Shown: piece after piece, positions 2,701 to 44,123 of the stretch
Layout of the letters: every line of letters starts with the position of its first letter
Position numbering within the stretch: the first letter of the stretch is position 1
From: Dehalococcoidia bacterium
GTDB taxonomy: Bacteria; Chloroflexota; Dehalococcoidia; Lucifugimonadales; Australimonadaceae
Length of the DNA: 64,000 bases
Assembly (NCBI GenBank): GCA_965206315.1
Contig: OZ242210.1
Coordinates: 258,822 to 322,821 of the forward strand
Direction of reading: 5' to 3'
Notes under the pieces: generated by a model
What the model was told of the DNA's origin: nothing
The model's input: the letters and a program-made list of their open reading frames with translations, nothing else
Database searches by the model: none
Program-made: the position numbers and the translations under genes

Positions 2701-2713
2701 GAAGTCCTGTTTC

Positions 2714-4933: not shown

Positions 4934-4942
4934 TCGTTCTTC

Positions 4943-5527: not shown

Positions 5528-5544
5528 GCCGGGGTACCCCGGCC

Positions 5545-10016: not shown

Positions 10017-10049
10017 GCAGACATGGTATCGGATGCAACTTCGGCGAAC

Positions 10050-10490
10050 AGCATGTCCGGCAACTGTTGCGGAGACCCTGAACGAACGCCATGCCATGCC
10101 CGTACATCGCCTCCGCTGACCGCGCACATAACCACTCATGGACTGTGCACAACGCGCCGGGTGCAGGCGTGGGCTTGCGCACATCGCAGGAGTGGAAGAG
10201 TCCGAAACTGCGCATGTACAGACTCCCGGGAAGGCATCGGTCAGGCTGTTGCGGATTTCAGGGCGGCTAGGCCGCTCCGCTATCGCCTCGGTGTTTGCCC
10301 GGCGCAGAGACCGCTGAGTAAACGCCACGCCGTGCCCGCACACCGTATCCGCTGACCGCGCACATAGCCCCTAATGGACTGTGCGCAACGCCCCGGATGC
10401 GGGCATCGATTCCCGAACAGCGCAGGAGTGAAACAGTCCGAAACCGGGCATGTACAGACTTCCAGAGACGTAGCGGTCAGGCTGTGGGCG
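10050..10490. repeat. intergenic tandem direct repeat, about 2.2 copies of a 235-bp unit
   Basis: Unit 10072-10255 aligns with 10307-10490 (period 235). Shared blocks include ccgctgaccgcgcacata, atggactgtgc, cgcaggagtg, agtccgaaac, gcatgtacagact and cggtcaggctgt, with scattered substitutions and small indels. A partial copy lies at about 10050-10071. Confidence 0.8.
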
Positions 10491-10560
10491 TGAATGACAT
10501 CGCGCGCGGGCGGAACAGCCCCATCTGAAGCGATGTCGAAGTGCGACGAGGGAACTCCAC

Positions 10561-19640: not shown

Positions 19641-20640
19641 CTACGAGAACCGCTGGCCGTACACGCTCCGGGCGTTGCCTTCGTAGATGGCGCCCCGGTC
19701 CTCGTCCGAAAGGAAATCGATGTCGTCGATGTAGGGCTTCGTGTTGTCGTACCACTCACCGGTGCGCGGGTTATCGGCCGACCCCGCGCCCGGACGCTCC
19801 GTGCCGAACAGGCAGCGGTCCGTCCCCACGATCTTGAACAGCAGCTCCAGCGACTCCTGGTTGTAGAGGCAGGTGTCATAGTAGAGGTTGCGCACGTGGC
19901 GGTCGAACGTCTCCTCCCCGTTCGCGCCGCGCATCCGGGCCCGCCAGCGCCCCGATCTGGTAGGGGATCGAGCCGCCGCCGTGGCTCATGATGATCTTGA
20001 GTCCCGGGAAGTCGTCGAATACCGTGGACTTCGCGAGCGACAGGATGGCGATGCTCTCCTCCGTGATGAAGTGGTTGTGGAACGACTCGCGCAGGTCTTT
20101 GCAGCTTGCCGGATGGATCAGCGCCGGTATGTCCTCCTTCTCCATCTTCTCGTAGAGCGGGTACCAGTACTCTTCGCCCATCGTCGGCGTCGTGTGCTGG
20201 CCCTCGCTCGGGTCCGGGTTGATCATGATGCCGATGAACCCGAGGTCGTTGATGCAGCGGTCGATCTCCTCGAACGTATCGGTCACGGGCGCTCCGTCGC
20301 ACTGCGGCAGGCCCGCGACGCCCCTGAACCGATCAGGTTCGTTCTGCACGGCCAGCGCGATCGCGTTGTTGTTCGCCTCGCAGAACCAGTGCACGATCTT
20401 GTCGGGCTTCTCCGAGTGCATCAGCGAGTACGGGCGCGGGGAGATGAAGGCCATATCCGTCCCCACGTCGTCCAACAGCTGGGAATGCGTCTTCCCCGCC
20501 GTCTTCCAGCTCGCCACGGTCTCCGCCGTAACGCCCGGATGCCCCTTGCCGTGGAACCCGCGCCCATTGATGAGGAACGCCTGGTACTGACCGATCTGCG
20601 ACCCCGTAACCAGATGCTGGTGCGCGTCGATGATCATCAT
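19641..20640 (-). pseudogene. amidohydrolase_2 (ACMSD-like) gene interrupted by a +1 frameshift
   Basis: The N-terminal part (MMIIDAHQHL...IIMSHGGGSIPYQIG) and the C-terminal part (MRGANGEETFDRHVRNLYYDTCLY...) lie in different frames. Removing one C from the CCCC run at 19950-19953 restores ...PYQIGRWRARMRGANGEETF.... Confidence 0.75.
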
Positions 20641-20785
20641 CGCCTCCCCTGCGCGTAGTGGCCGCATCATCCGCGCAACAGCGCTCCGGTGCAACCTGCC
20701 CGGCGCGCTCCCCGGGTGGAACCTGCTCCTTATGGAGACTAGACTCAGCCACAGCCCTTGTGAGACTTAGAGGAGGCGCGGAAGC

Positions 20786-22171
20786 ATGACCGATCCAGTC
20801 GTTGAACGTCTCGCCGGTTACGCAGCCGGCATCAGGTACGACGACCTGCCCGGCGAGGTCGTGCACCAGGTCAAGCGGCTCGTGATCGATTCGATGGGTT
20901 GCGGGCTGGCAGCGAGCGACGCCGTCCCGGTGCGCGCGGCACGAGACCTGGCGCTCGGAGTGCGCGGTTCATCACCTGCCACGCTGCTGGGGACCAACGA
21001 GACCACCACGCCGGACATGGCCGCTTTCGTGAACGGCGCCATGGTGCGCTACCTGGACTTCAACGACTCCTACAACGGCAAGGACATCGCCCACCCCTCC
21101 GACAACATCCCCGCAGTGCTGGCTGCGGCCGAGGCGCACGGAGCGTCGGGCCGGGAGCTCATCGCGGCTGTGGCACTCGCCTACGAGGTGCAGGCCGCAT
21201 GGGCGGACAGCTTCCACCTCGCCTCAGGCGGCGCCTGGGACCAGGCCGCCTATGCCGCCATCTCCGCGCCGCTCGGAGCGGGCAGCGTGATCGGCCTCAC
21301 GGAGGAACAGCTCGCGGAAGCGCTCCGCATCTCCGTGGTCAGCAGCATGACGCTCGGCGAGGCCCGTCGCGGGACCATCTCCCACTGGAAGGCGGCTGCC
21401 GTCCCGAACGCGGGCAGGAACGGCGTCTTTGCTGCCATGCTCGCGCGGCGCGGGATGACGGGGCCGCCGGAGGTGTTCTCCGGTTCGCACGGGTTCTTCG
21501 CCGGCGTGACGAGCAGCCCCGTCGAGCTTGCCCTGCTGGCGGGCGAAGGCGGCAACGACCGCCCGTTCCGGCTCATGGAGTCGCGCTTCAAGCGGTTCCC
21601 GGCGGGCTTCGTCTCCCAGACAGCGATAGAGGGTGCGATGGAGGCGCGGGAGGCACTGAGCATCGTCGACGTGGCCGACGTCGAGCACGTCCACATCCGC
21701 ACGTTCGAGAGCGGCAAGCGCATCATGGCGGGCGACCCCACGCGCTGGCGCCCGGAGACGCGCGAGACCGCCGACCACAGCATCCCCTTCGTCGTTGCCT
21801 GCGCCCTCCGGTTCGGCACGGTCGAACCCGCGCACTTCGAGGACGACGTCCTGCGCGACCCGGCGTTGCTGGGCCTGATGCAGCGTATCGAAGTCGTGCA
21901 GGACCCGGAATGTGACGCGGCCTGGCCGGAGGCCATCCTCAACATCCTCACGGTCCGTACCTCGGACGGTCGCCAGCACACGGCGTCCGTCCCCTACTAC
22001 ACCGGGCACTTCAAGAAGCCCATGACTGACACCGACGTCGAGGACAAGTTCAGGCGGCTTACGACCGGCCTGCTCGACGAGTCCCGCCAGCAGGCAGCCC
22101 TGGACCGCCTCTGGCATCTCGACGAGCAGACCGACCTCGGCCAGGTCATGGCAGCGATGGCTATCGCGTAG
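20786..22171 (+). CDS. MmgE/PrpD-family protein (2-methylcitrate dehydratase-like)
   Basis: 461 aa. N-terminus MTDPVVERLAGYAAGIRYDDLPGEVVHQVKRLVIDSMGCGLAA is typical of the family. GAGGAGG SD. Confidence 0.9.
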   Translation: MTDPVVERLAGYAAGIRYDDLPGEVVHQVKRLVIDSMGCGLAASDAVPVRAARDLALGVRGSSPATLLGTNETTTPDMAAFVNGAMVRYLDFNDSYNGKDIAHPSDNIPAVLAAAEAHGASGRELIAAVALAYEVQAAWADSFHLASGGAWDQAAYAAISAPLGAGSVIGLTEEQLAEALRISVVSSMTLGEARRGTISHWKAAAVPNAGRNGVFAAMLARRGMTGPPEVFSGSHGFFAGVTSSPVELALLAGEGGNDRPFRLMESRFKRFPAGFVSQTAIEGAMEAREALSIVDVADVEHVHIRTFESGKRIMAGDPTRWRPETRETADHSIPFVVACALRFGTVEPAHFEDDVLRDPALLGLMQRIEVVQDPECDAAWPEAILNILTVRTSDGRQHTASVPYYTGHFKKPMTDTDVEDKFRRLTTGLLDESRQQAALDRLWHLDEQTDLGQVMAAMAIA

Positions 22172-22208
22172 GCATCGCCGGGCACAGCACTTCGTAGCGC
22201 CGAGCGTC

Positions 22209-22214
22209 TATAAT
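22209..22214 (+). promoter_or_regulatory. -10 hexamer TATAAT placed 6 nt before the selD ATG (leaderless-type promoter)
   Basis: tataat-cccccc-ATG with no Shine-Dalgarno sequence. The same geometry occurs at 50580 and 55821. Confidence 0.4.
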
Positions 22215-22220
22215 CCCCCC

Positions 22221-23270
22221 ATGACGCAGCAAGAAGTCCGCCTCACCAGTCTGGCCACCTGCGCGGGTTGAGCCGGTAAGTTCAGCCCTGAGGACCTCGG
22301 CGAGGTCCTGAGCCACCTCCCTCACGTGCAGCACGACGACCTGCTCGTGGGGTTCGACACGAGCGACGACGCCGCCGTCTACCGCCTGACGGACGACCTC
22401 GCGGTCGTGCAGACGATCGACTTCTTCCCGCCGATCGTCGACGACCCGTACGACTTCGGCGCGATCGCCGCGGTGAACGCGCTGAGTGACGTCTACGCCA
22501 TGGGCGGGACGCCCCTGCTTGCGCTCAACATCGTCTGCTTCCCGGAGGACCTGCCGAAGGAGGTGCTCGGGCGCATGCTGCTCGGCGGGATGGACGTCGC
22601 GAAGGAGGCCGGCATCGTCATCGCCGGCGGTCACACGGTGAAGGACAGGGAGCCTAAGTACGGGCTGTCGGTCACCGGCATCGTGCGGCCTGACAGCATC
22701 GTCACGAACGCCGCCGCAGCCGTCGGCGACGACCTCGTGCTGACGAAGCCGCTCGGCTCAGGAATCATCACGACCGCGGCCAAGGCAGGGGTAACGGACG
22801 ACGCCATCCTCGCGGGCGCTGTGGCGACGATGCGCCAGCTGAACCGCGCGGGCGGCGAGGCGATGGTGGAAGCCGGGGTGAAGTCCGCCACGGACATCAC
22901 CGGCTTCGGGCTGGCGGGGCACATGCTCGGCATGCTGAAGGCGAGCGGGACCGCCGCGAAGGTCCGCTTCCCGGACGTGCCGCTCCTGCCCGGTGTGCGG
23001 GAGTTGGCCGAGCGCGGCGTCGTTCCGGGCGGAACGCGCAACAACCTCGACGCCTTCGATCCCGACATCGCCTGGGGCGACGGCATCACGGATGAGGAGA
23101 AGCTCATCTTCTGCGATGCCCAGACGTCGGGCGGCCTGCTCATTGCCGTGCCGCACGCTTCGACGCAGGTGGTGCTGGACGGTCTCGCCCGGCGTGGCGT
23201 TACGGGAGCAGTGATCGGTCGAGTCGTCGCTGCGGAAGACGCCGCCAACACGATCGAGGTCTCAGCGTAG
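22221..23270 (+). CDS. selD: selenide, water dikinase (selenophosphate synthetase; SenC role), selenocysteine-containing, with UGA at 22269-22271
   Basis: The ORF track starts at 22326, but the frame extends upstream as MTQQEVRLTSLATCAG-U-AGKFSPEDLGEVLSHLPHVQHDDLLVGF. The in-frame TGA aligns with Cys17 of E. coli SelD (GAGCGCK). The remainder (DDAAVY, DFFPPIVDDPYDFGAIAAVNALSDVYAMGG, TDITGFGL) is canonical SelD. Confidence 0.9.
22288..22312 (+). promoter_or_regulatory. candidate bacterial SECIS hairpin downstream of the selD UGA
   Basis: ct-g-AGGACCTC-ggc-GAGGTCCT-g-ag forms a 7-8 bp GC-rich stem starting 16 nt after the UGA, with G residues in the apical loop. Confidence 0.5.
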
Positions 23271-23288
23271 CGTGGAGCGCCCGTCGCC

Positions 23289-24599
23289 ATGAGCGCGTAC
23301 GACCTGCCCCCCGCGCCCTCGCGCAGGACCGACGACCTCGTCGCTGAGGCATTGGACTCGATCGAGATGGTGCTCGCCCTGACCGCCGACCTCGACGCCC
23401 GCCAGCAGCAGGGACCCATGATCCAGATCGTGAACCCGGCGCTGTGGGAGGTCGGTCACGTGGGGTGGTTCTTCGAGAAATGGACGCTCCGCAACCTCTA
23501 CGAGACGCAGAGCATGGTGCCCCACTCCGACGCGCTCTACGACTCGGCGGCCATCGCGCACGACACCCGCTGGCGGCTGAGCTTCCCGACGTGGGAGGAG
23601 ACGCGGGCGTTCGCACTGAAGGTCGCCCGAGATGCGACCGGCCGCCTCGGGCCGGGCGCACCGGACGCGTTGGAGCAGTACTTCATCCAACTCGCGACGA
23701 TCCACACGGACATGCATGCCGAGGCGTTCACGTACACGCGACAGACGCTCGGCTTTCCCGAGCCTGCGCTGCCATCGACGGCGACCCCCTCGCCGCAACT
23801 CGATTTCGAGCCGCACGACGTCGCCATCCCCGGAGGGACGTTCACGCTGGGCGCGGTCGAGGGCGAGCTGCCGTTCGTCTTCGACAACGAGAAGTGGGGG
23901 CACGAGGTCCACGTGGAACCGTTCGCGATAGCGGCCACCGCGGTGAGCAACGGCGAGTTCCTGCGCTTTGTCGAGTCCGGCGGCTACCGCGACCGTTCGT
24001 GCTGGACGGACGAGGGCTGGTGGTGGAGGCAGGCGCTCGGTGCTGAGCATCCCGTCTACTGGCGCAGGGAGAGCGACGGCCGATGGCTGGTGCGGCGCTA
24101 CGACGCCTGGGTACCGATCGACCCGCACGCCGCCATCATCCACGTCAATTGGCACGAAGCGAGCGCGTACTGCGCCTGGGCCGGGAGGCGATTGCCGACG
24201 GAACCCGAGTGGGAGCTGGCGGCGGCGGGCGGCGCGGACGGCGCTCCGAAACGCCGCTACCCGTGGGGCGACGAGCCGCCGACGCCCGAGCGCGCGAACC
24301 TCGACTTCCGGGGCCGGGGCACCGTCGACGTGCGCGCATTCCCCGCGGGAGACACGCCGGTCGGCTGTCGTCAGATGGTGGGCAACGCCTGGGAGTGGAC
24401 CGCAACGGAGTTCGGGCCGTACCCGGGTTTCGTCGCCGACCCCTACAAGGAGTACTCCGAGCCGTGGTTCAGCGGTCACAAGGTGCTTCGGGGGGGAGCG
24501 TGGAGCACGCGCAGCCGCCTGATCCGCAATACCTGGCGCAATTTCTACCTGCCCGACCGGCGCGACGTGATGTGCGGTTTCCGCACCTGCGCGGTCTGA
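23289..24599 (+). CDS. senA: EgtB-like non-heme-iron sulfoxide/selenoxide synthase (DinB_2 plus FGE-sulfatase domains); probable selenoneine synthase
   Basis: 436 aa. DinB-type metal ligands (VGHVGWFFE; IHTDMHAEAF = HX3HXE). FGE domain (VSNGEFLRFV, NWHEASAYCAWAGRRLPTEPEWE, GNAWEWT, LRGGAW). Lies 18 nt after selD and 17 nt before the glycosyltransferase. Confidence 0.8.
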   Translation: MSAYDLPPAPSRRTDDLVAEALDSIEMVLALTADLDARQQQGPMIQIVNPALWEVGHVGWFFEKWTLRNLYETQSMVPHSDALYDSAAIAHDTRWRLSFPTWEETRAFALKVARDATGRLGPGAPDALEQYFIQLATIHTDMHAEAFTYTRQTLGFPEPALPSTATPSPQLDFEPHDVAIPGGTFTLGAVEGELPFVFDNEKWGHEVHVEPFAIAATAVSNGEFLRFVESGGYRDRSCWTDEGWWWRQALGAEHPVYWRRESDGRWLVRRYDAWVPIDPHAAIIHVNWHEASAYCAWAGRRLPTEPEWELAAAGGADGAPKRRYPWGDEPPTPERANLDFRGRGTVDVRAFPAGDTPVGCRQMVGNAWEWTATEFGPYPGFVADPYKEYSEPWFSGHKVLRGGAWSTRSRLIRNTWRNFYLPDRRDVMCGFRTCAV

Positions 24600-24616
24600 C
24601 CCGGAGGTAAACGCTC

Positions 24617-25579
24617 GTGTACATCGGCCTCGTGACGCCCGCCCCGCCGTACAGCCGGAACGGCAACCGCGTCACGGCGAACCGCTGGGCCGGGATCCTG
24701 CGCAGCCTGGGGCACCGGGTCACGATCAGCCAGGACTACGGCGGGCAGGACTTCGACCTGCTCGTCGCCATCCACGCGCTGCGGAGCGCACAGGCCGTCG
24801 GTGCGTTCAAGGTCCGCCATCCGGACAGCCCGGTCATCGTGCTGCTGGCGGGCACCGACGTCTACGGGCCGCTCTATGAGGAGGGCGGCGGCCAGGTGCT
24901 CGACGCTGCGGAGCGCCTCGTAACCCTCCAGCGCCTCGCCGTCGACGAGCTCAGGGAGGAGCACAAGGTCAAGGTCCGGACGATCGTGCAGTCCGCGAGG
25001 GCCACGCCCACGTCCGGCCCGTCGCAGAACGCGCGCCACTTCGACGTGAGCGTCGTAGGGCACCTGAGACCGGTCAAGGACCCGTTCCTCACGGCCGACG
25101 CAACGCGGCGCCTCCCGCAAGAGTCCCGCATCCGCGTGCTGCAGATGGGCGATTCGATGGGCCCCGCGATGACCCGCCGGGCGAACGCGCTCGCGGCGAA
25201 CCATCCGCGGTATGCGTGGCTGCGCGGCCTGCCGTCGTGGCGCGCCCGCCGGCTGCTCAAGCGCTCCCACGTGATGGTGATCTCGTCGCTCTCGGAGGGC
25301 GGGGCCAATGTCGTCTCAGAGGCGGCGGTCGACGGCGTGCCGATACTGGCGTCCCGCATGCCCGGCAACGTGGGCCTGCTCGGCGACGACTATCCCGGCT
25401 ACTTCCCCGTGGGCGACAGCGCGGAGTTGCGCCGCCTGTTGCTCTGCTGCGAGAGCGACCCCACGTTCCTCGACTCCCTGCGGGAGGCGGAGAAGCCCCT
25501 CCGCTCGCTGCTCGATCCACGGCGCGAGTGCGCCGACTGGGCTGCGCTCCTGGACGAGGTCGCGCCAGTCAGGGGCTAG
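24617..25579 (+). CDS. senB: GT-B-type glycosyltransferase; probable selenosugar synthase
   Basis: 320 aa, GTG start with GGAGGT SD. The N-terminus MYIGLVTPAPPYSRNGNRVTANRWAGILRSLGHRV matches my recollection of the SelD/EgtB-associated glycosyltransferase family (NCBI TIGR04348, needs an HMM check). C-terminal SxSEGGANVVSEA motif. Confidence 0.7.
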   Translation: MYIGLVTPAPPYSRNGNRVTANRWAGILRSLGHRVTISQDYGGQDFDLLVAIHALRSAQAVGAFKVRHPDSPVIVLLAGTDVYGPLYEEGGGQVLDAAERLVTLQRLAVDELREEHKVKVRTIVQSARATPTSGPSQNARHFDVSVVGHLRPVKDPFLTADATRRLPQESRIRVLQMGDSMGPAMTRRANALAANHPRYAWLRGLPSWRARRLLKRSHVMVISSLSEGGANVVSEAAVDGVPILASRMPGNVGLLGDDYPGYFPVGDSAELRRLLLCCESDPTFLDSLREAEKPLRSLLDPRRECADWAALLDEVAPVRG

Positions 25580-26451
25580 CGCGCCAGGCGGCGCATCGCC
25601 GCAGAGGCGAGGTCGACGCTCAGCACCAGCAGCAGGTACCAGATGAGGAGCAGGGTCACGGTCGTGTAGTGGAAGTGGCTCAGGGAGATCCGGAACTCCA
25701 TGCCGAGGCCGCCGGCCGCCACCAGCCCGACGACGATGGTTGTCCGGATGATGACCTCCCAGCGGTAGAAGAGGTAGGTGATGAACCGGGGCAGGGCGGC
25801 GGGGAGGATGGCGTAGGCGATGACCTGGAACCAGCCCGCGCCGGACGTCCTGAGCGCGCGGGCCGGGCGCGTGTCGAGGCCTTCCACGACTTCCGCCGTG
25901 AGCTTGCCAAGGATGCCGAAGTTGTGTATCGCGAGCGCCAACGCCCCGGGAAGGATGCCGGGCGAGAAGATGAAGACGAGAAGCATCGCCCATATCAGCT
26001 CCGGCACGGAGCGGCTCAGCGCGTAACCGAGCCTGACGACCCCGAACCACGCGGTCCAGACCGGACTCCGGTAAGGGGCCAACTCGCCCGCCATGACGTT
26101 GCGCGCCGCGAACATGAAGGTGAACAGCGCCCCTATGGCGGCGATGCCCGCCGCGAGGACGCTCATGGCAAGCGTGGTCAGCGCGAGGCGCCCGGCCTCC
26201 GCCCACTCCGCGCCCTTCAGGTACGCGGGCGTGCTCTCGCGGCCCACGCCCGCGAGGTCGCCGAGGAACGACCACGCCCGCGAAGCGGTTTCCCCGGAGA
26301 AGAAGCCGTGGCTCGGCCACGACTGCCCGAAGACGATGTACGTCCACGCGGTGAGCATGAGGAAGGCCATCGCCAGCACGGAGCCCGACACGAACGTCAG
26401 CCTCGGACGCCCGCTCCCTGACACGTAAGCGGCGGTTGGAGCGGGGTTCAT
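25576..26451 (-). CDS. phnE: phosphonate/phosphite-type ABC transporter permease
   Basis: Polytopic protein with the permease EAA-like region ALRTSGAGWFQVIAYAILPAALP. Start set at the ATG at 26449-26451, which overlaps the upstream permease stop (ATGA). Confidence 0.8.
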   Translation of the reverse strand: MNPAPTAAYVSGSGRPRLTFVSGSVLAMAFLMLTAWTYIVFGQSWPSHGFFSGETASRAWSFLGDLAGVGRESTPAYLKGAEWAEAGRLALTTLAMSVLAAGIAAIGALFTFMFAARNVMAGELAPYRSPVWTAWFGVVRLGYALSRSVPELIWAMLLVFIFSPGILPGALALAIHNFGILGKLTAEVVEGLDTRPARALRTSGAGWFQVIAYAILPAALPRFITYLFYRWEVIIRTTIVVGLVAAGGLGMEFRISLSHFHYTTVTLLLIWYLLLVLSVDLASAAMRRLAR

Positions 26452-27263
26452 GGCGCAAGCCTCCGCCGTACCTGGGAGCTCCAGAGGTCCACGAGCACGA
26501 CCATGACCACCAGTACCCAGAGGAACGTCCAGACGCGGGAGTAGGCGAGGTCCTCGAGCGCGATCTGCACCTGGAAGCCCAGCCCGCCGAGCCCGACCCA
26601 GCCGAGCACCGCTGCCGACCGGATGCCGCACTCCAGCCGGTAGAAGGTGTAGGAGACCATGTCCGGCAGCGCCATCGGCAGGCGTCCGAACAGGAACACC
26701 CGCCACTCCGACGCCCCGGAGCGGCGCAGCGCGTCCAGCGGGGCCTGCGGCACGTCCTGCAACAACTCCGAGTAGATGCGGCCCAGGATCCCTCCGTACG
26801 GGATGCCCAGGGCCAGGACCGCCGCCATCGGCGAGAGACCTATCGCGGCAACGAAGAGCAGGGCCCAAACGAGTTCATGGATCGCCCGGAAGAAGGCGAG
26901 GAGACCCCGCGCGGCGCCTATCTGGGTGAGGGCCCCCACACGCGAGCGTGCCGTCGTTCCGGAAGCGATCACACCCAGCGGGATGCCGATGAGCAGTGCG
27001 ACCGTAAGCCCCGCGACCGCATAGGCCAGGGTCTGCCAAGCGGCGGCAGCGGCCTTCCTCAGGAGGTCCGGTGAGAGGTCGGGCCGGATGAATGCGCCCA
27101 GCGTCTCGGCGATCGCGCTCACCCCGCGCGGCCGGAAGACGCCCTCGCTCCAGTCGATGCCGAGCAGGCTCAGCGCGAATGCGCCGAGAAGGATGAGGGT
27201 GATCGTGCGCCGGCTGTCGATCGCGCGTGGGCGTCCCGGAGATATGGGGTACTCAGACCTCAC
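26448..27263 (-). CDS. phnE: phosphonate/phosphite-type ABC transporter permease (second copy)
   Basis: ALRRSGASEWRVFLFGRLPMALP permease loop. Proposed GTG start at 27261-27263 overlaps the phnC stop. The longer ORF to 27386 would lie inside phnC. Confidence 0.7.
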   Translation of the reverse strand: MRSEYPISPGRPRAIDSRRTITLILLGAFALSLLGIDWSEGVFRPRGVSAIAETLGAFIRPDLSPDLLRKAAAAAWQTLAYAVAGLTVALLIGIPLGVIASGTTARSRVGALTQIGAARGLLAFFRAIHELVWALLFVAAIGLSPMAAVLALGIPYGGILGRIYSELLQDVPQAPLDALRRSGASEWRVFLFGRLPMALPDMVSYTFYRLECGIRSAAVLGWVGLGGLGFQVQIALEDLAYSRVWTFLWVLVVMVVLVDLWSSQVRRRLAP

Positions 27264-28062
27264 TCCGCAGTCCTTCGATCTCGTACAGCTCCTCGAGCAT
27301 GCGGTCACGGATGCTGAAGGCGGGCACGTCGAACTGCACGAGCCCGTTCCGCAGGCCCACGATGCGGTCGAAGAACTCGCGCGCAAGGTCGATGGAGTGG
27401 ATGCTGGCGACGAGCGTTTCGCCCTGCTCCTCGGTCACGTCGGTGAGCAGGCGCACGACTTCCCTGGCCCGTGCGGGATCGAGCGATGCCACGGGCTCGT
27501 CCGCCAGCACGACAGTGGGACGCTGGACGAGCACCCGCGCTATCGCGACCCGCTGCTGCTCGCCGCCGGAGAGGCGACCGGCGCGCTGGTGCGCAAGGTG
27601 CGTGACGCCTACGCGTTCGAGGGCATCGAGCGCGAGCCGCTGCTCGCGGGGCCAGACCAGCGAGAGCAACGACTTGCCGAAGCTCCACTCGCCGAGCCTT
27701 CCCGCCAGCACGTTGTGCAGCACCGAGAGGTTCGGGACGAGGTCGAACTGCTGGGCGATCATCCCGACGAGCCGGGCGAGTTCGCGGCCGGGACGGAGGC
27801 TGGAGAGGTCACGCCCGCAAAGCTCGACAACGCCGGTCGTCGGGGCGGCGGCGCCCGCCATGAGCCGCAGCAGCGTCGTCTTTCCGGCGCCGCTCGGCCC
27901 GATCACGGCCACCCGGGTGCCCCGCTCGACGGCGAACTCCAGCGGCGCCAGCACGGTCGTTTGGCCGTAGCGCATGGAGGCGCCGTCGAACCGGACGGCG
28001 GGGACCGCCGTCGCAGCGACGGACGCCTCGCTACTCGATAATGCCGAATTGGCGCGCAGCAT
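27253..28062 (-). CDS. phnC: phosphonate/phosphite-type ABC transporter ATP-binding protein
   Basis: Walker A GPSGAGKT, signature LSGGEQQRVAIAR, Walker B VVLADEP. The start is uncertain. ATG at 28062 keeps the first beta-strand (VRFDGASMRYG) and overlaps phnD by 32 nt. Confidence 0.8.
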   Translation of the reverse strand: MLRANSALSSSEASVAATAVPAVRFDGASMRYGQTTVLAPLEFAVERGTRVAVIGPSGAGKTTLLRLMAGAAAPTTGVVELCGRDLSSLRPGRELARLVGMIAQQFDLVPNLSVLHNVLAGRLGEWSFGKSLLSLVWPREQRLALDALERVGVTHLAHQRAGRLSGGEQQRVAIARVLVQRPTVVLADEPVASLDPARAREVVRLLTDVTEEQGETLVASIHSIDLAREFFDRIVGLRNGLVQFDVPAFSIRDRMLEELYEIEGLRSEV

Positions 28063-28903
28063 CCTCAATGGCCTGGTACCTGTCGTTGCTCGTGCGAACG
28101 AACCGTTCGCCGTTGAAGGACTCGGCGATCTCCTTCGCCTGCCCGCCCCGGTCAACGTCGACGGTGAGCAGCGCGTCGGTGATGTTGTCCAACGCGTCCT
28201 CGCCGAACTTGTCGCCGATCGAAGGATGCGCCACCCAGTGGTAGTTGACGTACGCCGGCGTTCGATAGAACACGTCGACCTTGGACGTGTCGACCTCGCC
28301 GGCCGCGACGCGTCTCTCCCAGACGGCCTCGCTGAGCGCGCCTGCGTCGAACGAGCCGGCCTCCACGAGCTTCCATGTCGTGTCGTGCGAACCGCTGAAG
28401 CTGAGGGCGCCGAGCTCCGTCTCCGTGTCGACTCCCGCCTGGCTCAGGTAGTAGCGGGGCATCAGGTGCCCGGAGGTGGAGCTTTCGGAGCCGAACGTCA
28501 CCGTCTTGCCGCGCAGGTCATCGAGACTGCTGATGCCCGAGCCGGGCGCCGCGACGAAGACGGAATGGAACTCGCCGTCGCGCGGGCGGTGCGCGATGGC
28601 GTCGGCCTCGGGGACGGCGATCCGCGCCTGCACGCCGGTGACTGCGCCGTACCACACGAGATGGATGTCGCCCTGCTTGAAGGAGGTGACGACGGCGGCA
28701 TAGTCCGCCTGGGGCACGTAGCGCACGTTCAACCCTGTCTCCTCCGAAAGGTACTCGGCGAGATTGTTGAAGCGCGCTTCCAACACGCTCACGTCCTGAT
28801 CGGGTATCCCGGCGATGAGCAGCTCCTGCTCTTCTCCGCTTCCACACGCTGTCAGCCCTGCCAGCAGCAGGACAGCAGCCATTCCGATGACGATCTTTCG
28901 CAT
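28031..28903 (-). CDS. phnD: PhnD/PtxB-family periplasmic binding lipoprotein
   Basis: Lipobox MRKIVIGMAAVLLLAGLTAC. PhnD-like core (IPDQD..., DIHLVWYGAVTG, SGHLMPRYYL). AAGGAGAG SD before the ATG at 28901-28903. Confidence 0.85.
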   Translation of the reverse strand: MRKIVIGMAAVLLLAGLTACGSGEEQELLIAGIPDQDVSVLEARFNNLAEYLSEETGLNVRYVPQADYAAVVTSFKQGDIHLVWYGAVTGVQARIAVPEADAIAHRPRDGEFHSVFVAAPGSGISSLDDLRGKTVTFGSESSTSGHLMPRYYLSQAGVDTETELGALSFSGSHDTTWKLVEAGSFDAGALSEAVWERRVAAGEVDTSKVDVFYRTPAYVNYHWVAHPSIGDKFGEDALDNITDALLTVDVDRGGQAKEIAESFNGERFVRTSNDRYQAIEDAARQFGIIE

Positions 28904-28992
28904 GTCTCTCCTTAGGTCTCCTGGGGGATGCGAGGTATGATACTGTCTCGTGATGGTTGGCGGCATGAACGATTACAATTTATCATCAACGC

Positions 28993-29916
28993 ATGGATGT
29001 TGGTGCACTCAGGAGCTTCGTCGCCGTGTGTCGTTCCGGCAGCTTCCATGGGGCTGCGCGTGAGCGGCACGTGAGCCAACCGGGCGTGAGCAGGCACGTC
29101 CAACGGTTGGAGGAAGAGCTCGGCGTAACCCTGCTGGTCCGCCAACGGAAGCACGCGGTGCCGACCGCCGCGGGCAGCAGGCTCTTCGCCTACGCCGTGG
29201 ACGCGATCGCCGCCCATGACCGGATCATCGAGTCACTCGCGCGGGACGACGCAGCGGTCGAGGGCGAGCTCCGGATCGCGGCGAGCACCGCACCGGGGGA
29301 GTACCTGCTGCCCGGCCTCCTGTCGCAGTTCACGGAGATCTACCCGCGAGTGCGGCCACGGGTTGCAGTCACCGATTCCGCATCGGCGACTGCCCAGGTC
29401 GCGGAGGGCCACGCCGATATCGGGTTCACCGGGATGCGGGCGGCGCACCCTTCCCTGGAGTGGACGGTGGTCGCGGAAGACGAGCTGGTGCTCGCCGTGC
29501 CGGGAAGACATCCGTTCGCGGGCAGGGCGTCGGTTGACGTGAGCGAGCTGAAAGGGCTGCCGTTTATCGAGCGGGAACCGGGGTCCGGCACCTGGACCGG
29601 TCTCCGCCGCGCGCTGGACACGGCGGGGATCGGAGAGCCCGGTTACACGCCGGTCATGGTCGTCAACTCGACGCACGCTACGCTCGCCGCCGTCAACAAC
29701 GGCTTCGGGTTCAGTATCGTATCCTCGCTTGCGGTCCACGAGCACGAGTTCGACCAGGTCTACCCGGCGCGGTTGACCGGCCTCGACACCACTCGAAGCT
29801 TGTTTATGGTCAAGCGGACCTCGCTCGACTCATCCGTTGCCCAGGCGTTCGGGGACTGGGTGCTGGCCCGCCTCGCAAAGGGGCGCGAGACCATTGAAGG
29901 GGATCTATCGCGATGA
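28993..29916 (+). CDS. LysR-family transcriptional regulator
   Basis: MDVGALRSFVAVCRSGSFHGAARERHVSQPGVSRHVQRLEEELGVTLL HTH plus a LysR substrate domain. Divergent from phnD. A GAT-N8-ATC dyad lies at 28971-28984. Its stop overlaps the egtD start (ATGA). Confidence 0.9.
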   Translation: MDVGALRSFVAVCRSGSFHGAARERHVSQPGVSRHVQRLEEELGVTLLVRQRKHAVPTAAGSRLFAYAVDAIAAHDRIIESLARDDAAVEGELRIAASTAPGEYLLPGLLSQFTEIYPRVRPRVAVTDSASATAQVAEGHADIGFTGMRAAHPSLEWTVVAEDELVLAVPGRHPFAGRASVDVSELKGLPFIEREPGSGTWTGLRRALDTAGIGEPGYTPVMVVNSTHATLAAVNNGFGFSIVSSLAVHEHEFDQVYPARLTGLDTTRSLFMVKRTSLDSSVAQAFGDWVLARLAKGRETIEGDLSR

Positions 29917-30893
29917 CCGGATCATTCAACGTCACCGTCTGTACGTCAGCGGACGAGGAGCGCGCCTCCGCGGTGGAGGAGATCGTTCGGGGTCTGACGG
30001 CGGAGCCGAAGACGCTGAGCCCCAAGTTCCTCTACCACGAGGACGGCTCCGGCCTGTTCGACGAGATCACGCACCTGGAGGAGTACTACCCCACCCGTAT
30101 CGAGCACTGGCTGCTCGAGAACTACGGCGCCCTGATAGTTGGCGAGGTTCGGCCCCACGAGGTCGTTGAGCTCGGGCCCGGCAACAGCGCCAAGAGCGGT
30201 ATGCTCATCGGCCCCGGACTGCAAGCCGGAACGCTGCAGCGCTACATTCCCTTCGACATCAGCGAGTCGGCGGTCCGTGAGGGTGCGCGTGCCCTGTTCG
30301 ACCTGTACCCGGACCTCGGCGAGATCGCCGCTGTCGTCGGCGATTTCGGACGCCACCTCTCCGCCATACCTCACCCGCAGGGAACACGCCTCATCGCGTT
30401 CCTGGGTTCGACGATCGGCAACCTCTACCCCGATGAGCGAAGCCGCTTCCTGACGGAGGTGCGAGGGCTGATGTCCCAGCCGGAAGATGCGCTGCTCGTG
30501 GGAGTGGACCTCATCAAGGAGGTTCGCACCATAGAGGCGGCCTACAACGACGCCAGGGGCGTGACCGCCCTGTTCAACCTCAACTCGCTCAAGGCGGTGA
30601 ACGACCTGCTGGGCGTCGACATCGACGTCAACCAGTTCAGACACTGCGCGCTGTTCAACGACGAGCATTCGCGGATCGAGATGCACCTGGAGGCACGGGC
30701 CGACGTTGCATTCACGCTGCCCGGGAGCAACGACATCGTGCGCGTCCAGGCCGGAGAAACGATCTGGACCGAGAGCTCCTACAAGTTCACCAGGGACGGC
30801 TTCGCCGGGACGCTGCACGATGCGGGCTTCGGCGATGTCCGCTGGTTCACCGACCCCGAGGAGATGTTCGCGCTGGCGCTGGCCCGTCCGTGA
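29913..30893 (+). CDS. egtD: L-histidine N-alpha-methyltransferase (hercynine synthase)
   Basis: Strong resemblance to mycobacterial EgtD: LSPKFLYHEDGSGLFDEITHLEEYYPTR, ELGPGNSAK, FLGSTIGNLYP, AYNDARGVTALFN, RIEMHL, SYKF. Confidence 0.88.
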   Translation: MTGSFNVTVCTSADEERASAVEEIVRGLTAEPKTLSPKFLYHEDGSGLFDEITHLEEYYPTRIEHWLLENYGALIVGEVRPHEVVELGPGNSAKSGMLIGPGLQAGTLQRYIPFDISESAVREGARALFDLYPDLGEIAAVVGDFGRHLSAIPHPQGTRLIAFLGSTIGNLYPDERSRFLTEVRGLMSQPEDALLVGVDLIKEVRTIEAAYNDARGVTALFNLNSLKAVNDLLGVDIDVNQFRHCALFNDEHSRIEMHLEARADVAFTLPGSNDIVRVQAGETIWTESSYKFTRDGFAGTLHDAGFGDVRWFTDPEEMFALALARP

Positions 30894-30900
30894 GCCGGCG

Positions 30901-31845
30901 TCATCCCCCGGTGGACGCTTCCTTGAGGCGGCGGTACACCGCGACCACCGTCTCCCACGCCGCCTGCGCCTGCTCCGAACGGATCGCGGTCATCTGCTCG
31001 CCCGCGCGGTAGCACCACGTCGACACGTTGGCTATCCCGGTTGCGGCCATCGCCTCCGCAGCCCTGGTGATCTCGTTCTCCCGACCCGCTGGTATCGAGA
31101 ACGCCTGCAGCCAGGCCATTGGCTCCTGCCGGGACTTACTGCATGCGTCGACGATAGCTGCGCACGCGTCGTGCACATAAGGAGAGACGGGTTGTCCGTG
31201 CGCTCCCCACAAGGGTGATACCGCGACCACGTCGGCCGCGCGGGCCGCCGCCAGCTGCTCCGACAGGCTTGGCCCGGGGAGCACGCCGACCGCAGTGCGC
31301 AGTCCGAGTCCGCGGGCATCGCCGCATGCGTCCTCCATCAGGCGGGCCAGGCTCCACTCGAGAAACGTCCCCCCGCCCTGCGCTTCGAGGAAGGCTTGCT
31401 GCATCTCCCGGCAGCTCTCGCAAACGCACGACGCCTCTCCGGGAGCCATCGGGTCGTCGAAGAACACAGCGTCGGCGCCCGCCCCTGCTGCCGCCTCGAT
31501 CCAGCTCTGGAGCAGTTCGCGGAATGCAGGCGCGTTCGGGCAGGCCACCGGGACCCGTTCGCCATCAGGCTTGACCTGCCATGACTCGGGATGCCTGAGC
31601 AGGAAGTCGCTGAACGCTTCGCCCGCGAAGAGGCCCCCCAGCCCCCAGCAGTCCAGCCAGGCATCGAGGCCGGCCTCGTGCGTGGCGTTCACCAGCGCGC
31701 TTATCTCGCCGGAGTGGAAGGCCAGGTCGTACTCGCTGAAGGTGTGAACGACGTAGTCGCAACCGGCCTCGACGATCTCAGGAAGGTCTCGCTCCGCGTA
31801 ATGCCGGACGAACCGGTTGCCAAGGTACGTGACGCCGAGTTTCAT
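30901..31845 (-). CDS. hypothetical protein, possibly TIM-barrel-like, downstream of glmS
   Basis: 314 aa from MKLGVTYLGNRFVRHY..., 28 nt after the glmS stop. No family recognised with confidence. The ORF extension to 32031 overlaps glmS and is rejected. Confidence 0.5.
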   Translation of the reverse strand: MKLGVTYLGNRFVRHYAERDLPEIVEAGCDYVVHTFSEYDLAFHSGEISALVNATHEAGLDAWLDCWGLGGLFAGEAFSDFLLRHPESWQVKPDGERVPVACPNAPAFRELLQSWIEAAAGAGADAVFFDDPMAPGEASCVCESCREMQQAFLEAQGGGTFLEWSLARLMEDACGDARGLGLRTAVGVLPGPSLSEQLAAARAADVVAVSPLWGAHGQPVSPYVHDACAAIVDACSKSRQEPMAWLQAFSIPAGRENEITRAAEAMAATGIANVSTWCYRAGEQMTAIRSEQAQAAWETVVAVYRRLKEASTGG

Positions 31846-42459: not shown

Positions 42460-44077
<1,618 letters not shown>

Positions 44078-44089
44078 TCACGATTCCTG

Positions 44090-44123
44090 ACCTTGCCAGC
44101 CTCACGGGACTGGATTTAAAGGT
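44090..44123 (-). promoter_or_regulatory. PyrR-binding anti-antiterminator hairpin
   Basis: The reverse strand reads ACCTTTAAATCCAGTCCCGTGAGGCTGGCAAGGT and contains the UUUAA...UCCAG...GAGGCU...AAGG elements of PyrR binding loops. GCTGGCAAGG can alternatively pair with the terminator 5' arm (antiterminator). A TATACT -10 candidate lies at 44151-44156. Confidence 0.65.

What the first reader, a model, noticed from the sequence alone, without database searches (positions are those of the whole stretch)
22221..25579. selD - egtB-like - glycosyltransferase operon: a selenoneine-type (senC-senA-senB) organoselenium biosynthetic cluster
Three co-directional genes, separated by only 18 and 17 nt, encode the following. 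(i) Selenophosphate synthetase. (ii) A 436-aa DinB_2 plus FGE-sulfatase protein of the EgtB fold with the iron-binding His residues present (VGHVGW; IHTDMHAE = HX3HXE). (iii) A 320-aa GT-B glycosyltransferase. Ergothioneine clusters pair EgtB with EgtD/A/C/E, not with SelD. The SelD + EgtB-homolog + glycosyltransferase triad is the signature of the sen pathway reported in 2022 (Kayrouz et al., Nature). In that pathway SenC makes selenophosphate, SenB builds a selenosugar from a UDP-sugar, and SenA forms the C-Se bond to hercynine to give selenoneine. Standard annotation would call these genes selD, sulfatase-modifying-factor/EgtB and glycosyltransferase, and would miss the pathway. Local context strengthens the call. 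egtD (hercynine synthase) lies 4.3 kb downstream, and glmS (entry to UDP-GlcNAc) 6 kb downstream. The selD itself is a selenoprotein, so the organism is already committed to selenium metabolism.
Basis: partly seen in the sequence, partly recalled or inferred. Interest (0 to 1): 0.9.

Follow-up and report, generated by a model that had tools for sequence, protein, structure and literature searches.

The report
Selenoneine biosynthesis gene island
This is a correctly spotted but already well-known kind of gene cluster, the 2022 "sen" pathway that makes the selenium antioxidant selenoneine, sitting in an uncultured Dehalococcoidia genome next to its own selenium importer, regulator and hercynine-forming enzyme.

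Summary
selD (22221-23270, in-frame UGA at codon 17), a 436-aa EgtB-fold enzyme (23289-24599) and a 320-aa GT-B glycosyltransferase (24617-25579) are co-directional, with 18- and 17-nt spacers.

NCBIfam equivalog models call them SelD, SenA (473 bits, cut-off 420; the EgtB model scores 311, below its 360 cut-off) and SenB (350 bits, cut-off 300). The best solved-structure match is the ovoselenol enzyme OvsA. However, the published 14 informative motif residues read NEHHRHMHYYNFYR, which is the SenA rule, not OvsA (..YMQAYR) or EgtB-I (SDHRRHQHYYNWDR).

The cluster is larger than reported. A convergent PhnCDE-type "putative selenate" ABC importer, a selenium-associated-type LysR and a translationally coupled egtD make an 8.7-kb island. 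This island is conserved in related Dehalococcoidia MAGs.

Current annotation does not miss the pathway: a 91%-identical protein is already named SenA. The glmS linkage is not conserved.

The only possibly new element is an unannotated glycosidase-like TIM-barrel gene (30901-31845) that travels with sen islands in Dehalococcoidia.

Verdict: an ordinary new member of a known system, of low interest.

The parts
22209..22214 (+). TATAAT -10 box, 6 nt upstream of the selD ATG. It probably drives a leaderless sen operon transcript.
   Evidence: Read directly from the sequence. CTATAATC is invariant in the window and in L001-L005, while the rest of the upstream DNA diverges. No Shine-Dalgarno sequence lies between the box and the ATG. 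Promoter function is inferred.
22221..23270 (+). selD / senC: selenophosphate synthetase, itself a selenoprotein (Sec17 encoded by TGA at 22269-22271).
   Evidence: TIGR00476 390 bits (cut-off 125) and NF002098 370 bits (cut-off 299), with U replaced by C for the scan. Motif TCAG-U-AGK. The same in-frame TGA is present in 15 of 17 sen-linked selD genes in other loci.
22291..22309 (+). Candidate SECIS hairpin (AGGACCUC-GGC-GAGGUCCU), starting 20 nt after the UGA.
   Evidence: RNA fold of 22260-22330: -33.3 kcal/mol, z = -2.65. The hairpin is conserved in Dehalococcoidia relatives, with a C:G to G:C swap in L012 and L054. The consensus across phyla is weak, and no Rfam family matched.
23289..24599 (+). 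senA: non-haem-iron selenoxide (selenoneine) synthase. It is a long-form variant with a 52-residue segment (313-364) that V. paradoxus SenA lacks.
   Evidence: NF041186 SenA 473 bits (cut-off 420); the EgtB model TIGR03440 gives 311 bits (cut-off 360). Composite motif N49 E54 H57 H91 R94 H139 M142 H143 Y386 Y389 N418 F419 Y420 R424, which is the SenA rule. 40% identical to OvsA, 37% to V. paradoxus SenA and 34% to M. thermoresistibile EgtB.
24617..25579 (+). senB: selenosugar synthase (Se-glycosyltransferase, GT-B fold).
   Evidence: TIGR04348 350 bits (cut-off 300). Matches the SenB crystal structures 8jjq and 8fbx at E=2e-56. V. paradoxus N20, T23, H58, R61, T85, Q131, R155, V157, K158, E231 and E239 are conserved as window N17, T20, H53, R56, T80, Q126, R151, V153, K154, E227 and E235.
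25576..27263 (-). Two PhnE-type ABC permease genes (about 25576-26451 and 26448-27263). They converge on senB, and the two stop codons overlap in CTAG.
   Evidence: TIGR01097 PhnE 173 and 199 bits, both below the 217 cut-off. Pfam BPD_transp_1. Start codons chosen by length and Shine-Dalgarno sequence. Stop-codon overlap seen.
27253..28062 (-). PhnC-type ABC ATPase.
   Evidence: TIGR02315 239 bits, below the 266 cut-off. Start chosen.
28031..28903 (-). Substrate-binding lipoprotein of the 'putative selenate' ABC importer (signal peptide MRKIVIGMAAVLLLAGLTAC).
   Evidence: TIGR04553 306 bits (cut-off 250). The PhnD model gives only 141 bits. Pfam Phosphonate-bd. Start codon with GGAGAG Shine-Dalgarno sequence. 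The substrate has never been shown experimentally; the model is a 'hypothetical equivalog'.
28904..28992 (.). Divergent control region. ATGATA (28937-28942, a -10 box on the minus strand for the importer) and TATCAT (28981-28986, 6 nt before the lysR ATG) lie inside conserved boxes.
   Evidence: TATGATACYGTC..GTGAT and CGATTACAATTTATCAT are conserved in the window, L001 and L003. Promoter-like hit TTGGCG-18-TATCAT. Function is inferred.
28993..29916 (+). LysR-family regulator, of the selenium-metabolism-associated type.
   Evidence: Best model NF040786, 242 bits, just under its 250 cut-off; the next model gives 144 bits. A LysR gene also flanks sen genes in L001, L003-L006, L008, L038, L085 and L086.
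29913..30893 (+). egtD: histidine N-alpha-trimethyltransferase (makes hercynine). Its start overlaps the lysR stop (ATGA).
   Evidence: TIGR03438 310 bits (cut-off 291); Pfam Methyltransf_33 313 bits. Overlap seen. egtD lies within 10 kb of senA in 33 of 80 loci; it directly follows lysR in L001 and L003-L005, and directly follows senB in, for example, L009, L010, L013, L020, L021, L056 and L065.
30901..31845 (-). orf314: uncharacterised glycosidase-like TIM-barrel protein with a Cys4 site. It is a candidate lineage-specific accessory gene of the island, and its membership is tentative.
   Evidence: No Pfam, NCBIfam or PDB-sequence hit. AlphaFold2 model pLDDT 92.8. Foldseek best matches are GH35 and GH20 TIM barrels, TM 0.6-0.7. 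Invariant D130-(D/E)131-P132 and C102/C140/C142/C145. A homologue lies within about 7 kb of senA in 9 distinct Dehalococcoidia genomic places (11 locus ids, since L086 = L006 and L081 = L012), in varying positions.

Best explanation
The region is a selenoneine (sen) biosynthetic island of an uncultured Dehalococcoidia (Chloroflexota) bacterium.

Proposed flow:
1. A PhnCDE-like ABC importer takes up a selenium oxyanion (inferred).
2. After reduction to selenide (enzyme not identified), SelD/SenC uses ATP to make selenophosphate. This protein is itself a Sec17 selenoprotein.
3. SenB transfers selenophosphate onto a UDP-sugar, most likely UDP-GlcNAc, and hydrolyses the Se-P bond. Lys154 is the equivalent of the catalytic K158. 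The product is 1-seleno-beta-D-GlcNAc.
4. EgtD trimethylates histidine to hercynine.
5. SenA is an Fe(II)/O2 enzyme with a His57/His139/His143 triad and a catalytic Tyr386. It joins the selenosugar to C2 of hercynine.
6. The resulting selenoxide eliminates spontaneously, and reduction gives selenoneine.

selD-senA-senB form one operon, probably leaderless, starting from a conserved TATAAT box. A LysR regulator is transcribed divergently from the importer operon and is translationally coupled to egtD. It probably ties uptake and hercynine supply to selenium status.

What is shown and what is inferred:
- Gene identities and active-site residues are shown by sequence.
- The chemistry is inferred from characterised homologues that are 37-40% identical (SenA/OvsA), or that match at E about 1e-56 (SenB).
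- Transporter substrate, regulation and promoters are inference.
For: - Curated equivalog HMMs are passed by SelD, SenA, SenB and EgtD, and the importer's binding protein passes TIGR04553.
- The composite active-site motif NEHHRHMHYYNFYR satisfies the published SenA rule xNEH--HRHxHYYN(F/Y)(F/Y)R. It differs from EgtB-I at the thiol-binding pair (R87 to H91, D416 to Y420), exactly as described for all SenA proteins.
- The three residues that switch OvsA to SenA chemistry (M401Y/Q430N/A431F) are Y389/N418/F419 here.
- The SenB catalytic and selenophosphate-pocket residues are conserved.
- Gene spacers are 18 and 17 nt with Shine-Dalgarno sequences, and there are no terminators.
- In 80 related loci, senB lies beside the senA homologue in about 60. 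The full layout selD-senA-senB | importer | lysR-egtD recurs in L001 and L003-L005 at 80-91% SenA identity.
- NCBI already names a 91%-identical homologue SenA.
- The pathway chemistry was reconstituted in vitro for V. paradoxus.
Against: - No biochemistry exists for this clade. The nearest characterised NHISS enzymes are only 37-40% identical, and the best overall PDB match is OvsA rather than SenA.
- The enzyme is a long form with a 52-residue segment that the crystallised SenA lacks.
- SenB differs from V. paradoxus SenB at several ligand-contact positions: R22 to V (with an Arg one residue earlier), T83 to A, H211 to S, T214 to A, and EGGAHV to EGGANV. T214A did not impair the V. paradoxus enzyme.
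- The LysR and the PhnC/PhnE proteins score below their family cut-offs.
- The transporter's substrate is only a database hypothesis.
- Sec-insertion genes (selA, selB, tRNA-Sec) are not in the window, so the UGA read-through rests on conservation and a hairpin.
- Whether the organism is aerobic, as SenA requires, was not tested.
Confidence: 0.88

Rival explanations
1. The cluster makes ovoselenol. The 436-aa enzyme would be an OvsA that selenylates C5 of free histidine, followed by N-pi methylation.
For: OvsA of Halomonas utahensis is the best solved-structure match: 300-310 bits against 242 for V. paradoxus SenA, and 40% against 37% identity. ovs clusters also contain senB and senC homologues.
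Against: - The three specificity residues are Y389/N418/F419, the SenA type. OvsA has M/Q/A, and mutating it to YNF converts it to a hercynine-using, C2-selective enzyme.
- The best PDB hit is in fact that YNF mutant, 8ux5.
- The score advantage comes from the 52-residue segment that V. paradoxus SenA lacks. On trimmed columns the distances are equal (0.62 and 0.63), and an NJ tree does not place the window protein beside OvsA.
- egtD lies in the island, whereas most ovs organisms lack egtD.
- Apart from EgtD (PF10017, histidine N-alpha methyltransferase), no methyltransferase family, and so no OvsM-like candidate, was hit among the window ORFs scanned. The pyr-operon ORFs at about 36.7-44.1 kb were not scanned.
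- OvsA is described as almost exclusive to aquatic gammaproteobacteria.
Confidence: 0.04
2. The 436-aa enzyme is an ordinary sulfur-specific EgtB making ergothioneine with egtD. selD and the glycosyltransferase would be unrelated neighbours.
For: It has the same fold and the same iron triad, is 34% identical to M. thermoresistibile EgtB, and egtD is nearby.
Against: - The EgtB model scores 311 bits, below its 360 cut-off, while the SenA model passes.
- The thiol-binding residues S/D/R87/Q/W/D416 are replaced by N/E/H/M/F/Y.
- No egtA, egtC or egtE was found among the ORFs scanned.
- The trio is tightly spaced and recurs across phyla.
Confidence: 0.02
3. The genes are sen-type, but the end product differs from selenoneine. 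Examples are a free selenosugar, or a conjugate with a different sugar or acceptor. The clade is distant from the characterised enzymes, and SenB is known to be promiscuous.
For: Identity to any characterised NHISS is only 37-40%. SenB enzymes accept six UDP-sugars. Several SenB contact residues differ here.
Against: All hercynine-binding and selenol-binding motif residues are of the SenA type, and 58 of 81 sen-context proteins (80 loci plus the window) share this exact motif. The sugar-selectivity triad N20/T23/E231 is conserved. A dedicated egtD is coupled to the island.
Confidence: 0.05

Closest known systems
sen cluster (senA-senB-senC) of Variovorax paradoxus DSM 30034 (Kayrouz and Seyedsayamdost 2022; structures 8K5I/8K5J SenA, 8JJQ/8FBX SenB)
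   Same: It has the same three enzymes, the same SenA composite active-site motif (differing only F397 to Y420, which the rule allows), and the same SenB catalytic residues (N20, T23, K158, E231, E239). The family HMMs are passed. [quoted passage not shown]
   Different: - Identity to V. paradoxus SenA is only 37%.
- The window SenA keeps a 52-residue FGE-domain segment that V. paradoxus SenA has lost.
- SelD here is a Sec enzyme (UGA).
- Gene order is senC-senA-senB.
- The importer, LysR and egtD are all in the same island.
- The host is an uncultured Dehalococcoidia bacterium.
ovs (ovoselenol) cluster of Halomonas utahensis / Marinobacter vinifirmus; OvsA structures 8U41/8U42/8UX5
   Same: It is the closest solved structure by sequence (40% identity), shares the long-form architecture, and shares the SenB/SenC selenosugar cassette.
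   Different: The specificity residues are Y/N/F rather than M/Q/A. egtD is present. Apart from EgtD, no methyltransferase family, and so no OvsM-like candidate, was hit among the window ORFs scanned; the pyr-operon ORFs at about 36.7-44.1 kb were not scanned.
EgtB type I (Mycobacterium thermoresistibile, 4X8B) and the egtABCDE ergothioneine pathway
   Same: It shares the DinB + FGE fold, the 3-His iron site, the catalytic Tyr, hercynine as acceptor, and EgtD as hercynine source.
   Different: The donor-binding residues are changed (R87 to H, D416 to Y, S/D to N/E). The score is below the EgtB HMM cut-off. It is paired with SelD and SenB instead of EgtA/C/E.
TIGR04553 'putative selenate ABC transporter' / PhnCDE phosphonate importers
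   Same: The binding protein passes TIGR04553 (306 bits). The permeases and ATPase are PhnE- and PhnC-like. The same kind of importer flanks sen genes in L001-L007, L068, L069 and L084-L086.
   Different: No experimental substrate is known for this family. The PhnC and PhnE components score below the phosphonate-transporter cut-offs, which is consistent with a different substrate.

Membership tests
SenA (selenoneine synthase, NHISS subfamily) | Passes the curated equivalog HMM NF041186 and scores above the EgtB model | tested here: met
   473.4 bits against a 420 cut-off. EgtB TIGR03440 gives 310.9 bits against a 360 cut-off.
SenA (selenoneine synthase, NHISS subfamily) | Composite active-site motif xNEH--HRHxHYYN(F/Y)(F/Y)R (Kayrouz et al. 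2024), including EgtB R87 to H and D416 to F/Y | tested here: met
   N49 E54 H57 H91 R94 H139 M142 H143 Y386 Y389 N418 F419 Y420 R424. The leading 'x' and the two gap positions of the 17-position rule were not separately checked.
SenA (selenoneine synthase, NHISS subfamily) | Genomic association with senB (TIGR04348) and selD | tested here: met
   The genes are adjacent, with 18- and 17-nt spacers. The association recurs in related loci.
SenA (selenoneine synthase, NHISS subfamily) | Catalyses C2-Se bond formation between hercynine and SeGlcNAc | not testable with these tools
   This needs an enzyme assay. The nearest assayed enzymes are 37-40% identical.
SenB (selenosugar synthase, TIGR04348) | Passes the equivalog HMM TIGR04348 | tested here: met
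   349.6 bits against a 300 cut-off.
SenB (selenosugar synthase, TIGR04348) | Catalytic K158, sugar triad N20/T23/E231, E239 and the EGGAHV motif | tested here: met
   K154, N17/T20/E227 and E235 are present. The motif reads EGGANV, an H-to-N change at a position that contacts through the backbone.
SenB (selenosugar synthase, TIGR04348) | Hydrophilic selenophosphate pocket N20, H58, R61, T83, T85, R155 | tested here: inconclusive
   Five of six residues are conserved, and T83 is Ala78 here. The effect of that change is unknown.
SelD / SenC (selenophosphate synthetase) | Equivalog HMM plus the N-terminal (Sec/Cys)-x-x-Lys catalytic loop | tested here: met
   TIGR00476 390 bits. U17 and K20 lie in TCAG-U-AGK.
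SelD / SenC (selenophosphate synthetase) | The UGA is decoded as selenocysteine (SECIS element and Sec machinery) | tested here: inconclusive
   The in-frame TGA is conserved in 15 of 17 linked selD genes, and a downstream hairpin has z = -2.65. No tRNA-Sec, selA or selB lies in the window, and no Rfam hit was found.
EgtD (histidine N-alpha-methyltransferase) | Passes the equivalog HMM TIGR03438 | tested here: met
   310.3 bits against a 290.9 cut-off.
OvsA (ovoselenol selenoxide synthase) | Composite motif ...HYMQAYR (M401/Q430/A431 histidine-binding residues) | tested here: not met
   The window protein has Y389/N418/F419.
EgtB type I | Motif xSDH--RRHQHYYNWDR and a TIGR03440 score above the cut-off | tested here: not met
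   The motif reads NEH..HRHMH..NFY, and the score is 311 bits, below 360.
Selenium-metabolism-associated LysR (NF040786) | Passes the equivalog HMM | tested here: not met
   242.4 bits against a 250 cut-off. It is the best model by about 100 bits, so it resembles the family, but PGAP would not name it.
Putative selenate ABC transporter binding protein (TIGR04553) | Passes the HMM (a hypothetical equivalog) | tested here: met
   305.7 bits against a 250 cut-off. The substrate itself cannot be tested here.

The most novel reading that the evidence does not exclude
The island may contain one uncharted component. This is orf314 (30901-31845), a Pfam-less, glycosidase-like TIM barrel with an invariant D-(D/E)-P at the end of predicted strand 4, a Gln where clan GH-A enzymes carry the nucleophile, and a Cys4 site.

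In Dehalococcoidia it sits beside sen islands at 39-78% identity, although its position relative to them changes. It could be an accessory enzyme that handles the GlcNAc part of the pathway. One possibility is cleaving the dead-end hercynyl-SeGlcNAc selenoether that thiols produce from the SenA product. Another is recycling 2-acetamidoglucal.

Together with the LysR that couples a selenium importer to egtD, the island would then be a self-contained, selenium-responsive selenoneine regulon with a new Se-glycoside-processing step.
Probability: 0.15. Interest if true: 0.5.

Novelty: new member of a known kind. Interest (0 to 1): 0.22.

Why it matters
It adds one more uncharacterised instance of a pathway published in 2022. 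About 1,500 SenA sequences and 827 complete sen clusters had already been catalogued, and current NCBI models annotate the pathway automatically.

Its modest value has three parts:
- It places a complete set of uptake, regulation, activation and biosynthesis genes in uncultured Dehalococcoidia. Their closest relatives are MAGs that I suspect are sponge- or marine-derived, judging from accession and locus-tag styles I recall; no record of sampling source was examined.
- It shows that the abundant 'long-form' SenA clade, which is closer overall to OvsA than to the crystallised SenA, still carries the hercynine/C2 motif.
- It gives practical warnings for anyone expressing such clusters. The selD needs Sec decoding or a U17C change, and the transcripts look leaderless.

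The linked glycosidase-like gene is the only lead that could extend the known pathway.

Tried and rejected
- glmS as pathway context: rejected. It is adjacent only in the window and L001, and not in L003-L006.
- PrpD-like gene upstream (20786-22171) as part of the cluster: rejected. It is conserved only in L001, and the upstream DNA diverges right up to the TATAAT box.
- OvsA and EgtB assignments: rejected on motif residues.
- Rfam scan: no SECIS or other RNA family in the region.
- Cross-phylum consensus fold of the UGA-downstream region: weak, -1.1 kcal/mol with 2 covarying pairs. The SECIS therefore rests mainly on the within-clade hairpin.
- Terminator scan of 22000-31200: none found.
- Exact-sequence look-up of the window's SenA in the contig index: nothing on record. 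The source genome was therefore not identified beyond 'Dehalococcoidia, closest OZ242348.1 / DAOUJK01'.
- tRNA-Sec: not in the window. No selA- or selB-type family was hit among the ORFs scanned.
- Inverted-repeat search of the lysR/importer intergenic region: none found with a 6-nt seed.
- Sequence searches for orf314 against PDB, Pfam and NCBIfam: no significant hits. The profile against PDB gave only a marginal GH42 hit, E=0.014.
- Literature search for selenoneine together with Chloroflexota, Dehalococcoidia, SAR202 or sponge: the 12 top-ranked papers of 2,022 that hold at least two of the terms do not mention selenoneine. The search did not require the word, so this is inconclusive.

Full report
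**1. Observation**

- Translating 22221-23273 gives a 349-residue SelD with a single in-frame TGA at codon 17, inside TCAG-U-AGK.
- The 436-aa ORF 23289-24599 and the 320-aa ORF 24617-25579 follow after 18 and 17 nt. Each is preceded by a Shine-Dalgarno sequence.
- No terminator-like site occurs between 22000 and 31200.
- egtD (29913-30893, +) and glmS (31874-33727, -) lie at the stated distances.

**2. Identity of the three proteins**

Against NCBIfam:
- The first protein is SelD (TIGR00476, 390 bits).
- The second passes the SenA equivalog NF041186 (473 bits, cut-off 420). It fails the EgtB equivalog (311 bits, cut-off 360).
- The third passes TIGR04348, now named 'selenoneine biosynthesis selenosugar synthase SenB' (350 bits, cut-off 300).

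Pfam sees only the generic FGE-sulfatase and Glycos_transf_1 domains.

Homologues that are 74-93% identical occur in Chloroflexota/Dehalococcoidia MAGs. One of them, 91% identical, is already named 'selenoneine synthase SenA' by NCBI.

**3. SenA, OvsA or EgtB?**

The best solved-structure match is not SenA but OvsA, the ovoselenol enzyme. OvsA scores 300-310 bits, V. paradoxus SenA 242 bits and EgtB 222 bits. By BLASTP the identities are 40%, 37% and 34%.

Kayrouz et al. 2024 give a residue rule that separates the subfamilies:
- SenA: xNEH--HRHxHYYN(F/Y)(F/Y)R
- OvsA: ...HYMQAYR
- EgtB-I: xSDH--RRHQHYYNWDR

They also showed that M401Y/Q430N/A431F converts OvsA into a hercynine-using, C2-selective enzyme.

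I aligned the window protein with the three reference enzymes and with the 80 related loci. Its motif reads NEHHRHMHYYNFYR (N49 E54 H57 H91 R94 H139 M142 H143 Y386 Y389 N418 F419 Y420 R424). That is the SenA rule, and 58 of 81 sen-context proteins (80 loci plus the window) share this exact motif. The top PDB hit is in fact the OvsA-YNF mutant.

The apparent closeness to OvsA has a simple cause. V. paradoxus SenA lacks a 52-residue segment (window residues 313-364) that OvsA, EgtB-I and most SenA homologues keep. On trimmed columns the window protein is equidistant from SenA and OvsA, and an NJ tree places it inside the large SenA-motif clade.

The EgtB thiol-binding pair R87/D416 is H91/Y420 here. 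The original paper describes this replacement for all SenA proteins.

**4. SenB and SelD details**

Alignment to the V. paradoxus SenB crystal sequence, read against the mutagenesis literature, shows these residues conserved (window number = V. paradoxus number):
- the catalytic Lys (K154 = K158);
- the sugar triad (N17/T20/E227 = N20/T23/E231);
- E235 (= E239), H53, R56, T80 and R151.

The differences are T83 to A78, R22 to V19 (with an Arg one position earlier), H211 to S, T214 to A, and EGGAHV to EGGANV.

For SelD, the same in-frame TGA is found in 15 of 17 selD genes linked to sen genes in other loci (Dehalococcoidia, Acidobacteriota, Rubrobacteraceae). Two gammaproteobacterial loci have Cys. 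A hairpin at 22291-22309 folds better than shuffled sequence (z = -2.65). It is conserved among Dehalococcoidia with one compensatory swap, but the cross-phylum consensus is weak.

No tRNA-Sec lies in the window, and none of the ORFs scanned hit a selA- or selB-type family.

**5. The island is bigger than reported**

Four minus-strand genes lie between senB and egtD: two PhnE-like permeases, a PhnC-like ATPase and a lipoprotein binding protein. The binding protein passes TIGR04553, 'putative selenate ABC transporter substrate-binding protein' (306 bits, cut-off 250). The last permease gene converges on senB with overlapping stop codons.

Divergent from the binding-protein gene is a LysR regulator. 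Its best model by about 100 bits is 'selenium metabolism-associated LysR' (242 bits, just under the 250 cut-off). Its stop codon overlaps the egtD start (ATGA).

The layout selD-senA-senB | importer | lysR-egtD is conserved in L001 and L003-L005, and partly in L002, L006 and L007. senA-senB adjacency holds in about 60 of 80 loci across many phyla. egtD lies within 10 kb of senA in 33 of the 80 loci.

Kayrouz et al. [quoted passage not shown] This architecture is therefore known.

glmS is adjacent only in the window and L001, so it is not evidence for the pathway.

**6. Control signals (inferred)**

An invariant CTATAATC lies 6 nt upstream of the selD ATG in the window and five relatives, while the remaining upstream DNA is unrelated. 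No Shine-Dalgarno sequence is present. The same geometry (TATCAT, then 6 nt, then ATG) precedes lysR. Its reverse complement ATGATA sits 38 bp away, facing the importer operon, inside conserved boxes. This suggests leaderless selD and lysR transcripts and a compact divergent operator region.

**7. Mechanism**

The proposed flow is:
1. Uptake of a selenium oxyanion (inferred).
2. Reduction to selenide (enzyme unknown).
3. SelD makes selenophosphate.
4. SenB makes SeGlcNAc from a UDP-sugar.
5. EgtD makes hercynine.
6. SenA forms the C2-Se bond with Fe(II)/O2.
7. The selenoxide eliminates spontaneously to give selenoneine (chemistry).

I put 0.88 on this. The rivals are ovoselenol at 0.04, ergothioneine at 0.02 and another Se product at 0.05.

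**8. A side lead**

The gene after egtD, orf314 (30901-31845, minus strand, 28 nt downstream of glmS), has no Pfam, NCBIfam or PDB-sequence match.

Structure and residues:
- A confident AlphaFold2 model (pLDDT 92.8) is a TIM barrel. It is most like GH35 and GH20 glycosidases (TM 0.6-0.7, 10-14% identity).
- A profile search gives a marginal GH42 match that includes the Cys-rich stretch.
- Invariant residues include D130-(D/E)131-P132 after predicted strand 4, where I recall clan GH-A enzymes having NEP. Q247 lies at the end of predicted strand 7, where I recall GH-A enzymes placing the nucleophile Glu. C102/C140/C142/C145 are also invariant.

Genomic context:
- Homologues lie within about 7 kb of senA in 9 distinct Dehalococcoidia places: L001, L003, L004, L005, L006 (=L086), L012 (=L081), L054, L084 and L085. 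Identity is 39-78%.
- The position changes from place to place: after egtD, after lysR, or upstream of selD.
- Two homologues are unlinked to sen genes.
- None occurs in the roughly 70 non-Dehalococcoidia sen loci.
- The wider family has at least 299 clusters at E<=1e-30. Of the four most distant homologues examined, those in L090, L089 and L087/L088 sit among carbohydrate-related genes, while L082 shows no such context.

A role in handling the GlcNAc moiety is possible but speculative. One candidate substrate is the hercynyl-SeGlcNAc selenoether shunt product reported. Another is 2-acetamidoglucal. I put about 0.15 on this.

**9. Verdict**

This is a new, uncharacterised member of a known and already auto-annotated system.

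Noticed in passing
window 30901-31845 (-); also L001, L003-L006, L012, L054, L081, L084-L086: A Pfam-less 314-aa protein is predicted with high confidence to be a GH35/GH20/GH42-like TIM barrel. It has invariant D-(D/E)-P and a Cys4 site. It sits beside sen islands in Dehalococcoidia in varying positions, and it is absent from sen loci of other phyla. The wider family has at least 299 clusters, and several distant members lie among carbohydrate-related genes.
   Followed up: yes
window 22209-22221 and 28981-28993: Both selD and lysR have a -10-like hexamer (TATAAT, TATCAT) ending 6 nt before the ATG, with no Shine-Dalgarno sequence. This suggests leaderless mRNAs. The selD box is invariant in five relatives although the upstream DNA is otherwise unrelated.
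   Followed up: partly
L001-L005, L008, L012, L027, L036, L038, L040, L044, L052, L054, L071 (selD genes next to sen genes): 15 of 17 sen-linked selD genes encode selenocysteine (in-frame TGA) at the catalytic position. Only the two gammaproteobacterial loci (L048, L076) use Cys. Expressing such clusters in a foreign host would truncate SelD unless it is recoded.
   Followed up: partly
L011, L015, L046 (NHISS genes at about 10001-11300): Three homologues have a deviant composite motif: EEH(N/Y)R... instead of NEHHR... at the donor-binding positions. They have no senB nearby, only egtD or nothing. They fit none of the published subfamily rules and may use a different sulfur or selenium donor.
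   Followed up: no
L038 6425-7672 and L040 8679-9977: A second, 31-33%-identical NHISS paralogue lies between selD and senA in two loci. It may be an EgtB sharing the same neighbourhood.
   Followed up: no
window 19641-20766 (-): An Amidohydro_2 gene is split into two overlapping ORFs. One matches Pfam profile positions 1-182 and the other 215-288. This is either a frameshifted pseudogene or a sequencing error.
   Followed up: partly
window about 62200-64000: GC content drops sharply from about 67% to about 47%. One ORF (63090-63998, -) has its first 50 residues matching the C-terminus of IspD and the rest containing a DUF5677 match. A 294-aa ORF (62203-63087, -) has no family. Together they look like a foreign insertion between ispD and ispF (61189-61677).
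   Followed up: partly
window 10561-18804 (+): A 2,747-aa secreted protein contains cadherin-type and SWM repeats.
   Followed up: partly
window 2-5569 (-): A respiratory-type operon encodes an NrfD-like membrane subunit, a 4Fe-4S protein, a molybdopterin-like subunit (best model QrcB, below its cut-off) and a multihaem cytochrome c. It resembles a Qrc or alternative-complex-III module.
   Followed up: partly
window 44011-44126 (-): A PyrR-binding RNA element (Rfam RF00515, 61.6 bits) lies at the head of what looks, from ORF sizes and order, like a minus-strand pyr operon. The ORFs at about 36.7-44.1 kb were not scanned against any protein family library.
   Followed up: no
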